From the IMG/VR virus record IMGVR_UViG_2531839193_000016: DNA of 64,000 nucleotides. One strand, 5' to 3'. Position numbers: made by a program. The DNA comes from a virus. Taxonomy: Duplodnaviria; Heunggongvirae; Uroviricota; Caudoviricetes. Below, in pieces: positions 27,001 to 30,000 of the stretch (position 1 is its first letter; every line of letters begins with the position of its first letter).

Positions 27001-30000
27001 ATAAAAAAGTTGAAGCATATGAACTCTCCCGCACTCGAACTGTATTTGCAGGCATCTGAATAATCGGAAAAATAATCATTATAGATTTCCGCATTTTCAA
27101 TCATTTTTCGATTTCTCGTCGTTACATGATTGTCCATAGCAGCCTCTTACGCTGGCAATTAACCAATTGACTTCTATAAATTAGTTGATTTGTTTGCTTT
27201 GCGGTATTCAAATGTACAATCATTCAGCACTTATGCGTTACAGCACCGTTTAAAATTAGTGATCAAACTCATAAATTTTCGCTAATGACATTTCGTGTTA
27301 TTTGTTGTATCAATTAAATAAATCAAATCGATCGTTTTTGTCGATCGATTGAGTGATAAAGATATCAACAACAAAGCAGGAGGTTATGCGGCCATGTATC
27401 GAAACATACGGTGCCGACATTGTAACAAGCTACTGGCACGAGCCAGCTTCAGTTATCTGGAAGTTAAATGTCCGCGCTGTAAAACCCTCAATCAAATCAC
27501 ATCTCAGAGCGCCACAGAGCACCCCACATACACAAGGAAATCCTGTCGTGGGGAACAGAAAGCAAGTTACATCCCGTATCATCAGCACGCCTGAACTTAT
27601 TCACTATAACGACAATATCGTCGGTTATGGCTCCCGTGAGTTACGGGTTGAGACAATAAGTTGCTGGCTGGCCCGGCTGGTCGTCGTCAATAAACATTAC
27701 AGCCATCGTTTCGTAAATAATTCCTACCTTCATCTGGGCATATTTTCAGAACGGGAGCTGGTTGGCGTAATGCAATGGGGTTATGCCCTTAATCCAAACA
27801 ATGGTGCACGCGTCGTAACTGGCACGCAGAACCGCGAATATATGGAGCTTAACCGGTTATGGCTGCATGACTGTATGCCGAGAAACTCCGAATCAAGGGC
27901 AATCAGTTACGCGCTCAAACTAATCAGACAACTTTATCCGCAGGTGCAGTGGGTTCAGTCGTTTGCAGATGAGCGTTGTGGCTGTCTTGGTGTCGTGTAC
28001 CAGGCAAGCAATTTTGATTATGTAGGCAGTCATGAAACAACATTCTATGAACTTGATGGCGAGTGGTATCACGAGATTTGCAAGAATGCAATCAAACGAG
28101 GAGGACAGCGAGGTGAACATCTGCGGGCTAATATCGACAGAGCCAGTGTTCATAAATTCCGTCAGTTTCGTTACATCCGGTTTCTGGACAAGAGAGCCAG
28201 AAAACGCCTTAACACAAAGCTATTCAAAGTCCAGCCTTACCCAAAACCACAAACAGTTAAAACTGGTTTGAAAGAGAGTGAATGAACGCTTAAAAACTCA
28301 TTCTAAAACTCAAAAGAAAAGCGCCGATTTAGTATCAAATAAGTTGCGTATCGGTGTTTTTCAGCGGTATCAAATGAAATGCAAATCGGTATCAAAAAAA
28401 TCGCCGCGCTATACCTTTCAAATCAATAAGCGGTATCCACAGACAAACCTGAAGGGAAAGGCATATTTTCAGGCGTTCTGCTCGTCCTTCTCAAAGAGTT
28501 TACTTTTCTGCATTTCCAGGATACTCCCCGTTACTTTATTCGTACCCCTTATAATGGGGTGTTAGCCAGCCAGACCCGGCATGATTACTGCCCCCAGTCG
28601 TCCATGATCCGGGGGGTGATGTCACCGGGTCTGGTGGGGCGCTGGTAACCGCTAATAGGGGTCAGGTCAGGCACTTTTGCCGGGACCGTCTGTAACGTGG
28701 ATGCCGGTACCTGCTCCCCGTGGTTATCTGGTTAACCCATATACAAGGGAGACAGAATGACCGAATCCAGCGATTACGAATCCGTCCAGGTCTTTATCGG
28801 CGTTGATGTCGGTAAAGATACGCATCACGCTGTTGCCATTAATCGTTCAGGTAAACGCCTGTTCGATAAAGCATTACCCAACGACGAAAACAAACTCAGG
28901 TCGCTAATATCTGACCTGAAACAACATGGTCAGATACTGCTGGTTGTTGATCAGCCAGCTACCATCGGTGCGTTACCTGTCGCCGTTGCCCGCTCAGAAG
29001 GAGTCCTTGTCGGATACCTCCCTGGACTGGCCATGCGCCGCATAGCCGACTTACACGCCGGTGAAGCTAAAACTGATGCTCGTGACGCTGCCATCATTGC
29101 CGAAGCTGCCCGTACCCTGCCTCACGCGCTACGCACGCTGAAACTGGCTGACGAGCAAATCGCCGAACTCTCCATGCTCTGCGGCTTCGATGATGATCTT
29201 GCCGCACAGACAACGCAGGCCAGCAACCGTATCCGCGGCCTTCTGACCCAGATACATCCGGCACTGGAGCGCGTTCTCGGTCCGAGACTTGAGCACCCGG
29301 CGGTACTCGATCTTCTCCAGCGATATCCCTCACCAGAAAAACTCGCTTCGCTGGGCTTCGCTGGGTGAGAAGAAGCTGGCAGCCCAGCTCTGCAAACTTG
29401 CGCCTCGTCTGGGTAAACGCCTTGCAGCAGACATAGCTCAGGCACTGGCCGAACAAACCGTCGTCGTTCCCGGCACGAATGCCGCTGCCGTAGTACTGCC
29501 ACGTCTGGCACTCCAGCTCATCACGCTGCGTAAGCAAAGAGACGAGGTGGCGCTTGAGGTAGAACAGCGAGTTCTTGCTCACCCTCTTTACCCGGTCCTG
29601 ACCAGTATGCCCGGAGTCGGTGTCAGGACCGCAGCCAGACTCCTCACCGAGGTCGCCTGCCGCGCCTTCGCCTCTGCCGCACATCTCGCTGCTTATGCTG
29701 GCCTTGCGCCGGTAACTCGGCGATCCGGCTCGTCAATACGCGGTGAGCATCCCTCGCGACGGGGTAATAAAGCTCTCAAACGGGCGTTGTTCCTGTCGGC
29801 CTTCGCCGCGCTCAGGGATCCGCTCTCCAGGGCTTACTACACCCGCAAAATGAGTCAGGGAAAACGACACAATCAGGCGCTTATCGCCCTGGCGAGACGA
29901 CGCTGCGACGTTCTGTTCGCCATGATGCGCGACGGGACTTTTTATACCCCGCAGGGGTTATAACATGCTTGACAACTTAATAGGGGCACCCCCTGGCTAT

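What the first reader, a model, noticed from the sequence alone, without database searches (positions are those of the whole stretch)
29346..29365. IS110-family transposase inactivated by a perfect 10-bp tandem duplication
CTTCGCTGGG occurs twice in tandem. Removing one copy joins ORFs 28757..29368 and 29289..29963 into one ~399-aa recombinase (…PEKLASLG-EKKLAAQLCKL…). Unlike the homopolymer cases, a 10-bp duplication is unlikely to be a consensus error, so this is probably a real disabling mutation.
Basis: seen in the sequence. Interest (0 to 1): 0.45.

Follow-up and report, generated by a model that had tools for sequence, protein, structure and literature searches.

The report
Frameshifted ISEc20 insertion sequence copy
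This is one copy of a known mobile element (ISEc20) whose recombinase gene is broken by a real 10-base duplication; the same broken version sits at many places in Shigella sonnei genomes and is copied between them by gene conversion, so it is an ordinary pseudogene with a mildly interesting history.

Summary
CTTCGCTGGG is doubled at 29346-29365. Removing one unit fuses ORFs 28757-29368 and 29289-29963 into a 398-aa IS110-family recombinase. The element is ISEc20 (window 28526-29993), inserted in a C-run between fadL and yfdF on a Shigella sonnei chromosome.

The duplication is real and derived:
- It is absent from all 5,426 complete E. coli genomes, more than 1,100 of which carry full-length ISEc20.
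- It is absent from about 70 diverged homologues.
- It is present in independent S. sonnei assemblies.

It is not private to this copy. The identical allele sits at seven or more chromosomal sites and two plasmid sites in S. sonnei. At fixed sites the allele state differs between strains. In 53G, plasmid site B gained the duplication and lost three site-specific SNPs together, which is a gene-conversion tract.

The frameshift separates the DEDD/RuvC half (ORF1) from the serine-bearing Tnp half (ORF2), so this copy is almost certainly non-autonomous. Its ends and its 5' RNA are intact; that RNA is a conserved two-hairpin, bridge-RNA-like structure.

Verdict: an ordinary IS pseudogene, already annotated as such, with a modestly interesting concerted-evolution story.

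The parts
28526..29993 (+). ISEc20 (IS110 family) copy, 1468 bp including the duplication (1458 bp in intact copies); it is the only copy in the window
   Evidence: Alignment with the plasmid and E. coli copies fixes both boundaries. Self-BLAST finds one copy. Annotated as ISEc20 in RefSeq hits.
28526..28529 (+). Left copy of the C-run core (CCCC); the right copy is CCCCC at 29989-29993
   Evidence: The empty site in E. coli ET650 reads GGATACT-CCCCC-TGGCT. All 20+ insertions examined sit in a C-run with otherwise unrelated flanks.
28530..28756 (+). Left-end non-coding region encoding a conserved two-hairpin RNA (hairpin 1 at 28565-28639, hairpin 2 at 28650-28699); inferred to be the bridge RNA; identical in intact and duplication-bearing copies
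   Evidence: MFE -98.3 kcal/mol, z = -2.55. In a 61-sequence alignment, 40 pairs are 98.2% paired against 35-48% with slid partners; 70 cells change on both sides against 22+-3.7 shuffled. No Rfam family matches.
28588..28618 (+). CTGCCCCC (28588-28595) and GGGGGGTG (28611-28618) in hairpin 1: target-guide-like segments that match the C-run target
   Evidence: Conserved in all relatives, while the 3 nt before CCCCC vary. The guide role is inferred.
28653..28697 (+). TAATAGGGG (28653-28661), which equals the right-end terminus at 29978-29986, and GTAACG (28692-28697), the reverse complement of the left-end start: donor-guide-like segments on the two sides of hairpin 2
   Evidence: Covariation: relatives whose right end is ATAGGGAC also have ATAGGGAC in this segment (L061, L066, L067).
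28757..29368 (+). ORF1, 203 aa: the DEDD/RuvC-like domain (PF01548 at nt 28796-29260) plus about 30 aa of linker, then F-A-G-stop read from the duplicated unit
   Evidence: The exact product was seen on 135 contigs, all named S. sonnei.
29346..29365 (+). The perfect 10-bp tandem duplication (CTTCGCTGGG x2); it causes a +1 frameshift after codon 200
29289..29963 (+). ORF2 (+1 frame). From 29367 it encodes wild-type residues 201-398, including the Tnp domain (PF02371 at nt 29595-29840) and the serine motif RRSGSS (29718-29735). Gene callers start it at GTG 29547 (138 aa)
   Evidence: The Tnp domain aligns to IS621 198-316 and ISCro4.
29959..29959 (+). Private SNP of the window copy (T; every other copy examined has C); it changes the last codon from Ser to Leu
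29969..29974 (+). Outward-facing perfect TTGACA at the right end; a possible -35 of a circle-junction promoter (inference only)
   Evidence: IS621 is reported to rebuild a sigma-70 promoter at the RE-LE junction (PMC11208158).
30076..30842 (-). Neighbouring IS1 with a 9-bp target duplication CATTAGGTA; context only, shared with S. sonnei 53G
   Evidence: (L010).

Best explanation
The window holds one chromosomal copy of the known insertion sequence ISEc20 (IS110 family) in a Shigella sonnei genome. It is inserted in a C-run between fadL and yfdF. A real 10-bp tandem duplication after codon 200 shifts the frame by +1. Translation therefore ends three codons later, which leaves a 203-aa DEDD/RuvC-only product and strands the serine-bearing Tnp domain in another frame. 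IS110 recombinases need both halves to build their composite active sites, so this copy most likely cannot make active recombinase (inferred). Its ends and its left-end bridge-RNA-like gene are intact, so it remains a potential substrate and RNA donor for recombinase made elsewhere (inferred). The duplication arose once in the S. sonnei lineage. It now occupies many ISEc20 loci, because homologous copies exchange sequence by gene conversion; allele state at a fixed locus differs between strains in both directions.
For: Identity and lesion.

Derived and lineage-specific:
- The junction 44-mer is absent from 5,426 E. coli genomes.
- It is present in 6 S. sonnei pINV plasmids at 10 places.
- The exact 203-aa ORF1 is named only from S. 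sonnei.
- About 70 diverged homologues are ungapped at this point.

Multi-locus: the identical allele occurs at fadL-yfdF, rtcB, pac, hns/alaE, Form_Nir_trans, umuC and IS21-adjacent chromosomal sites, and at plasmid sites A and B.

Allele state varies at fixed loci:
- Plasmid site A is intact in Ss046 and about 15 other plasmids, and duplicated in 53G, CP046285 and CP151313.
- Site B is a 5'-truncated copy that cannot move. It is duplicated in 5 plasmids and wild type in 15.
- The chromosomal Form_Nir_trans site is duplicated in 53G and intact in CP179952, with 0 flank mismatches over 6.1 kb.

Direct conversion signature: site B carries private SNPs (29697T, 29708T, 29988C). They persist in the CP023646 wild-type copy and the Ss046 duplicated copy, but in the 53G duplicated copy all three are replaced by the canonical bases.

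Domain logic: IS621 has RuvC 1-122, a coiled coil 123-188 and Tnp 189-326. Its composite active site combines the DEDD residues with S241, and mutating any of them abolishes recombination (PMC11208158). The ISEc20 break at residue 200 lies between PF01548 and PF02371.

Activity: Hawkey et al. 2020 infer that all 9 chromosomal ISEc20 insertions predate the S. sonnei MRCA, with none gained afterwards (PMC7373316 S6 Table).
Against: - Loss of function is inferred from domain architecture and was not measured.
- The other IS110-family elements of S. sonnei (ISSso6, ISSso1) are equally static, so the lack of new insertions cannot be pinned on the duplication.
- Intact copies coexist in S. sonnei, on pINV site A and on some chromosomes such as CP179952, so the family as a whole is not dead.
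- Precise loss of one repeat unit (reversion) would mimic dup-to-wild-type conversion. Only the 53G site-B tract proves conversion.
- CP179952 is a version-2 assembly, and reference-guided polishing could in principle have removed a 10-bp duplication.
Confidence: 0.85

Rival explanations
1. The duplication is an assembly or consensus artefact of this genome.
For: IS copies are repeats, and assemblers can copy a consensus into every copy. That would also explain identical lesions at many loci within one assembly.
Against: The same junction occurs in independent assemblies of different eras and technologies: Ss046 (chromosomal 138-aa 'ISSfl2 ORF' and plasmid site B), 53G, FDAARGOS_715, CFSAN strains, and recent 4.8-Mb single-contig assemblies. 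Duplicated and wild-type copies coexist within single plasmid records, which a collapsed consensus would not produce.
Confidence: 0.01
2. The element is still autonomous. Either ribosomes bypass the lesion by +1 slippage at GGG_UGA_G (29363-29369), giving a full-length protein with a 3-aa FAG insertion, or the two half-proteins assemble in trans, since IS110 active sites are composite between protomers.
For: ORF2 is exactly +1 of ORF1, and a shift at the stop would give ...LASLGFAGEKKL.... IS621 active sites are built from the RuvC domain of one protomer and the Tnp domain of another. The allele is present at many loci.
Against: - No homologue uses a two-ORF arrangement.
- There is no Shine-Dalgarno-like stimulator upstream or recognised shifty motif, judged from reading the sequence.
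- The glycine tRNAs that read GGG would mispair at the wobble position on GGU (background knowledge).
- The insertion or break falls in a conserved YPSPxxLAxxxEKxLA motif and inside the linker that corresponds to the dimerising coiled coil of IS621.
- The GTG start used by gene callers would omit residues 201-260.
- No new chromosomal insertions have occurred since the S. sonnei MRCA.
- The multi-locus presence is already explained by gene conversion.
Confidence: 0.06
3. The duplicated allele reached its many loci mainly by transposition of a defective master copy, mobilised in trans by an intact copy such as pINV site A. Gene conversion was only a minor contributor.
For: The ends and the left-end RNA gene are identical in duplicated and intact copies. 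RNA-guided recognition of the donor ends should not distinguish between them (inference from PMC11208158). Five of the seven chromosomal sites were seen only with the duplicated allele.
Against: - Two of the sites (fadL-yfdF and Form_Nir_trans) are shared with other genomes that hold intact copies at the same position, so those insertions probably predate the duplication.
- Site B cannot transpose, yet it carries the duplication in some strains.
- A conversion tract is directly visible in 53G.
- The two mechanisms are not mutually exclusive.
Confidence: 0.25
4. The duplication is a mutational hotspot that arose independently in each copy, or a slippage-prone switch that toggles on and off at each locus without any exchange between copies.
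For: Tandem duplications can be lost precisely by replication slippage (background knowledge). Allele state flips at fixed loci in both apparent directions.
Against: - Zero occurrences among more than 1,100 E. coli genomes with full-length ISEc20 and about 70 relatives argue against recurrent gain.
- Only 1 nt of flanking microhomology exists.
- The 53G site-B change involves linked SNPs up to 640 bp away, which slippage cannot explain.
- Reversion may still account for some dup-to-wild-type changes.
Confidence: 0.08

Closest known systems
ISEc20 (IS110 family; also annotated ISSfl4-like or 'ISSfl2 ORF' in Shigella records)
   Same: 98.9-99.9% nucleotide identity over the whole element and the same ends. 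The insertion site is the same as the intact copy in E. coli M217 and FDAARGOS_944. Apart from the private SNP at 29959, which changes the final residue from Ser to Leu, the repaired product matches WP_000140459.1.
   Different: Carries the 10-bp duplication after codon 200 and one private SNP at 29959.
IS621 / ISCro4 bridge recombinases (PDB 8wt6, 9t56)
   Same: DEDD RuvC-like N-terminal domain and a Tnp domain with an SG serine motif. A 5' non-coding RNA with two internal-loop hairpins, one of which carries segments matching the element's own ends. The core sequence is repeated at both ends.
   Different: Only the Tnp domain aligns confidently (E 1e-14). The ISEc20 linker is about 140 aa, against 66 aa in IS621. 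The core is a C-run rather than CT. Flanks beyond the core show little shared sequence. No biochemical data exist for ISEc20.
Frameshift-inactivated IS copies and concerted evolution of IS families in Shigella
   Same: A pseudogenised transposase in an IS-rich, host-restricted pathogen. Copies within a genome are kept near-identical. Other ISEc20 copies with different truncations exist (L117, L119, L120).
   Different: Here a null allele, not just neutral SNPs, is what is being passed between copies. One conversion tract is directly visible.
Programmed-frameshift transposases (IS1, IS3 family)
   Same: Two overlapping ORFs whose fusion gives the full enzyme.
   Different: Those use a conserved -1 slippery site found in every family member. 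Here the shift needed is +1, it was created by a recent duplication, and it is absent from every homologue.

Membership tests
IS110 family / ISEc20 | N-terminal DEDD (RuvC-like) transposase domain | tested here: met
   PF01548 E 2e-49 on ORF1, aa 14-168; D17 and D107/D110 motifs present.
IS110 family / ISEc20 | C-terminal Tnp domain with the conserved catalytic serine | tested here: met
   PF02371 E 5.5e-22 on ORF2. Aligns to the IS621 Tnp domain including the SGSS motif. RRSGSS at residues 318-323 of the repaired protein. In this copy the domain is in a different frame from the DEDD domain.
IS110 family / ISEc20 | Near-identity to reference ISEc20 copies | tested here: met
   98.9% to E. coli chromosomal copies and 99.9% to S. 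sonnei plasmid copies annotated ISEc20. The ISfinder reference itself was not available.
IS110 family / ISEc20 | No terminal inverted repeats or fixed target duplication; insertion at a short core that appears at both ends | tested here: met
   The empty site has one C-run and the occupied sites have a C-run at each end. Inverted repeats were not searched for formally.
Bridge-RNA-guided recombinase system (IS621-like) | Non-coding RNA in the element's end with two structured loops | tested here: met
   Two hairpins supported by covariation in 61 sequences. No Rfam model matches.
Bridge-RNA-guided recombinase system (IS621-like) | Loop segments complementary or identical to the donor ends and to the target, co-varying with them | tested here: inconclusive
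   The donor side is supported: TAATAGGGG equals the right-end terminus, with a matched G-to-A change in L061, L066 and L067, and GTAACG is the reverse complement of the left-end start. On the target side only the C-run is matched; the flanks fit the variable 3 nt only loosely.
Bridge-RNA-guided recombinase system (IS621-like) | Circular intermediate with a junction promoter; RNA-dependent recombination | not testable with these tools
   Only an outward TTGACA at 29969-29974 was seen.
Programmed ribosomal frameshift transposase | Two-ORF arrangement and slippery site conserved among homologues | tested here: not met
   All intact ISEc20 copies and about 70 relatives are single ORFs with no gap here.

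The most novel reading that the evidence does not exclude
The duplication is not just debris. In this reading the 203-aa RuvC-only product, made from up to about ten copies, still binds bridge RNA or intact protomers and acts as a trans-dominant inhibitor. Alternatively or additionally, the slippage-revertible, conversion-exchanged duplication acts as a reversible off-switch. Either would hold ISEc20 nearly silent in S. sonnei while preserving its capacity to reactivate.
Probability: 0.06. Interest if true: 0.5.

Novelty: already known. Interest (0 to 1): 0.27.

Why it matters
For annotation, the two ORFs should be merged and flagged as one ISEc20 pseudogene, as RefSeq already does for such copies.

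Biologically it is a small, clean natural example of a null allele moving through a multi-copy IS family by gene conversion. Allele state differs per locus between closely related S. sonnei strains. This matters for anyone who uses IS copies as stable markers, or who infers IS activity from copy number.

It also shows that the ISEc20 subfamily has the hallmarks of a bridge RNA (a conserved two-hairpin RNA with a donor guide that co-varies with the element's end), targets C-runs, and has close relatives across phyla. None of this changes current understanding of IS110 elements.

Tried and rejected
- Rfam scan of 28300-30200 at E<=1 found no family.
- The promoter/terminator scan found nothing informative inside the element.
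- My first attempts to extract copies by exact end motifs failed, because of the private SNP at 29959 and the site-B SNPs. Pairwise BLAST solved this.
- A shared target motif beyond the C-run was looked for in more than 20 flanks. Only a weak preference for G/C before the run was seen.
- Literature searches for ISEc20 and ISSfl2 found no description of this allele.
- I considered and rejected an assembly artefact, a recurrent hotspot and programmed frameshifting (see rival explanations).
- I did not run structure prediction or the large protein searches, because Pfam plus the IS621 alignment already place the break.
- I could not enumerate every ISEc20 copy in a single S. sonnei chromosome, because Shigella chromosomes are not in the searchable DNA collections.

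Full report
**1. Observation**

Window 29346-29365 is CTTCGCTGGG twice in tandem. The register can slide by one base. The decamer occurs nowhere else in the window. A perfect 10-bp tandem repeat is expected about 0.06 times in 64 kb of random sequence, so the repeat alone is only suggestive. The decisive evidence is comparative: intact copies of the same element differ from the window by exactly this 10-bp insertion. Deleting one unit gives a 398-aa ORF.

**2. What the element is**

- The repaired protein has PF01548 (DEDD_Tnp_IS110, aa 14-168) and PF02371 (Transposase_20, aa 277-358). ORF1 keeps only the first domain and ORF2 only the second.
- The DNA is 98.9% identical to E. coli chromosomal copies and 99.9% identical to S. 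sonnei plasmid copies annotated 'IS110-like element ISEc20 family transposase'.
- Alignment of copies in different contexts fixes the element at 28526-29993. It is the only copy in the window.
- The empty site in E. coli ET650 reads GGATACT-CCCCC-TGGCT, whereas occupied sites have a C-run at each end. More than 20 insertions in unrelated flanks all sit in C-runs.
- The window is a Shigella sonnei chromosome. It matches 53G (HE616528) at 99.95% from 28414 to 32367, including the adjacent IS1. It has different, com/mom-like phage sequence upstream and one private SNP at 29959, so it is not 53G itself.

**3. Is the lesion real and derived?**

- A 44-nt query across the junction can only seed megablast on duplication-bearing DNA. 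It finds nothing in 5,426 complete E. coli genomes, although more than 1,100 of them carry full-length ISEc20.
- The same query finds 10 places in 6 S. sonnei pINV plasmids and in no other species' plasmids.
- The exact 203-aa ORF1 is in the protein collection on 135 contigs, with only S. sonnei names.
- About 70 relatives at 73-82% aa identity read straight through a conserved ...YPSPxxLAxxxEKxLA... motif with no gap.
- The lesion appears in Sanger-era, short-read and long-read assemblies.

It is therefore a real, derived, S. sonnei-specific mutation.

**4. It is not private to this copy**

The identical allele, otherwise identical in sequence, is found in 53G and other S. sonnei assemblies at these sites:
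- fadL-yfdF (the window's locus);
- inside rtcB;
- inside the penicillin amidase gene;
- between hns and alaE;
- inside a Form_Nir_trans gene;
- inside umuC;
- next to an IS21;
- pINV site A (inside an IS21 istA);
- pINV site B (next to ospE2).

**5. How the allele came to be at many loci**

Allele state changes at fixed loci:
- Site A is intact in Ss046 and about 15 other S. sonnei plasmids, but duplicated in 53G, CP046285 and CP151313.
- Site B is 5'-truncated at element position 320, so it cannot transpose. Other Shigella and EIEC pINVs hold a full intact copy at the same right junction, so wild type is ancestral there. Among S. sonnei plasmids, 5 carry the duplication at site B and 15 do not.
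- Site B has three private SNPs (29697T, 29708T, 29988C in window coordinates). They are present in the CP023646 wild-type copy and in the Ss046 duplicated copy. In the 53G duplicated copy all three are replaced by the canonical bases. This is a gene-conversion tract of at least 640 bp that brought the duplication with it.
- On the chromosome, the Form_Nir_trans site is duplicated in 53G but intact in CP179952, whose 6.1 kb of flanks have no mismatch to 53G.
- The fadL-yfdF and Form_Nir_trans sites are also occupied by intact copies in E. coli M217 and FDAARGOS_944. These insertions therefore probably predate the duplication.

Independent recurrence is unlikely, given zero occurrences outside S. 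sonnei and only 1 nt of microhomology. Trans-mobilisation of defective copies and precise reversion may contribute, but neither is needed to explain the data.

**6. Consequence for function (inferred)**

- In IS621 the recombinase is built from RuvC (1-122), a dimerising coiled coil (123-188) and Tnp (189-326). Its active sites combine the DEDD residues of one protomer with S241 of another, and mutating any of them abolishes recombination (PMC11208158).
- The ISEc20 Tnp domain aligns to IS621 198-316, including the SG serine motif. The break at residue 200 lies in the long linker between the domains.
- ORF1 retains D17 and D107/D110. ORF2 retains RRSGSS. The copy therefore most likely makes no active enzyme.
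- A +1 slip at GGG_UGA would give a full-length protein with an FAG insertion. Nothing supports this: there is no conserved two-ORF arrangement and no evident stimulator, and the insertion would fall in a conserved motif.
- Hawkey et al. infer that all nine chromosomal ISEc20 insertions predate the S. sonnei MRCA, with none gained since (PMC7373316 S6 Table). ISSso6 and ISSso1 are equally static, so this is consistent with the duplication being disabling but not specific evidence for it.

**7. What remains intact**

- The 231-nt left end is identical in duplicated and wild-type copies.
- Across 61 diverged relatives it forms two hairpins (window 28565-28639 and 28650-28699). Of pair cells, 98.2% are paired, against 35-48% when partners are slid. 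Seventy cells changed on both sides, against 22+-3.7 in shuffles.
- Hairpin 2 carries TAATAGGGG, identical to the right-end terminus, and GTAACG, the reverse complement of the left-end start.
- In three relatives whose right end reads ATAGGGAC, the internal segment also reads ATAGGGAC.
- Hairpin 1 carries invariant CCCCC and GGGGGG segments that match the C-run target, preceded by 3 variable nucleotides.

This is the layout of a bridge RNA, although Rfam has no model that matches it and the function is untested. The copy is thus best described as non-autonomous but probably mobilisable.

**8. Comparison with what is known, and verdict**

The element is a member of a known IS (ISEc20, IS110 family), and every family feature that could be tested was met. 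Frameshifted IS copies and concerted evolution of IS families are known phenomena. RefSeq already treats these copies as pseudogenes, and the PLSDB gene tables list no CDS under them. I found no paper describing this allele.

What this analysis adds is that the lesion is an S. sonnei-wide allele exchanged among copies by gene conversion. Interest is low to moderate.

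Noticed in passing
window 31578-31599: A second perfect tandem duplication (AATGCTTCAGC x2, 11 bp, frameshifting) lies inside yfdF. E. coli M217 yfdF has one copy. yfdF here also has a 1-bp deletion near 31086 and an IS1 (30076-30842) in front of it, so it is a pseudogene hit several times.
   Followed up: partly
window 11697-11728: A perfect 15-bp tandem duplication (GCGACTGAAAAACCC x2, three registers) was found by the same scan.
   Followed up: no
window 27349-28414: com/mom-like phage ORFs (a zinc-finger Com-like 81-aa ORF and a 310-aa Mom-like ORF, identified from my own recognition of the sequences and not tested with any tool) abut the locus. Homology to S. sonnei 53G, which has fadL here, breaks at 28414, indicating a strain-specific rearrangement or prophage junction.
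   Followed up: partly
L039-L110 (genome-contig loci): ISEc20-like elements at 73-82% aa identity occur in Burkholderiales and in Actinobacteria (Microbacterium, Pseudoclavibacter, Cryobacterium). They share the same CCCC-GTTAC...GGGGCA-CCCC ends and a conserved left-end RNA. This is unusually high conservation across phyla.
   Followed up: partly
window 28526-28529 and 29989-29993; L025 empty site: ISEc20 inserts into runs of 4-6 C. The flanks otherwise show little similarity, only a weak G/C preference just before the run. That is looser apparent target specificity than IS621.
   Followed up: partly
L021-L023 (CP179952.1): An S. sonnei chromosome (flanks identical to 53G) has intact ISEc20 copies at three sites, including one where 53G has the duplicated copy. 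Either conversion or reversion occurred on the chromosome, or assembly polishing removed the duplication.
   Followed up: partly
L117, L119, L120: In other draft assemblies, the same 138-aa ORF2 sits behind ORF1 fragments of 163, 224 or 89 aa. These are different, independent disabling lesions in other ISEc20 copies.
   Followed up: no
L001 5712-6839; L024 5170-6044: A second IS110-family element (ISSso6) lies immediately downstream of ISEc20 at plasmid site A and again near site B.
   Followed up: no
L090 601-2188: A Paraburkholderia homologue has a match about 394 nt longer than the 1194-nt gene, which suggests an insertion within the recombinase gene.
   Followed up: no
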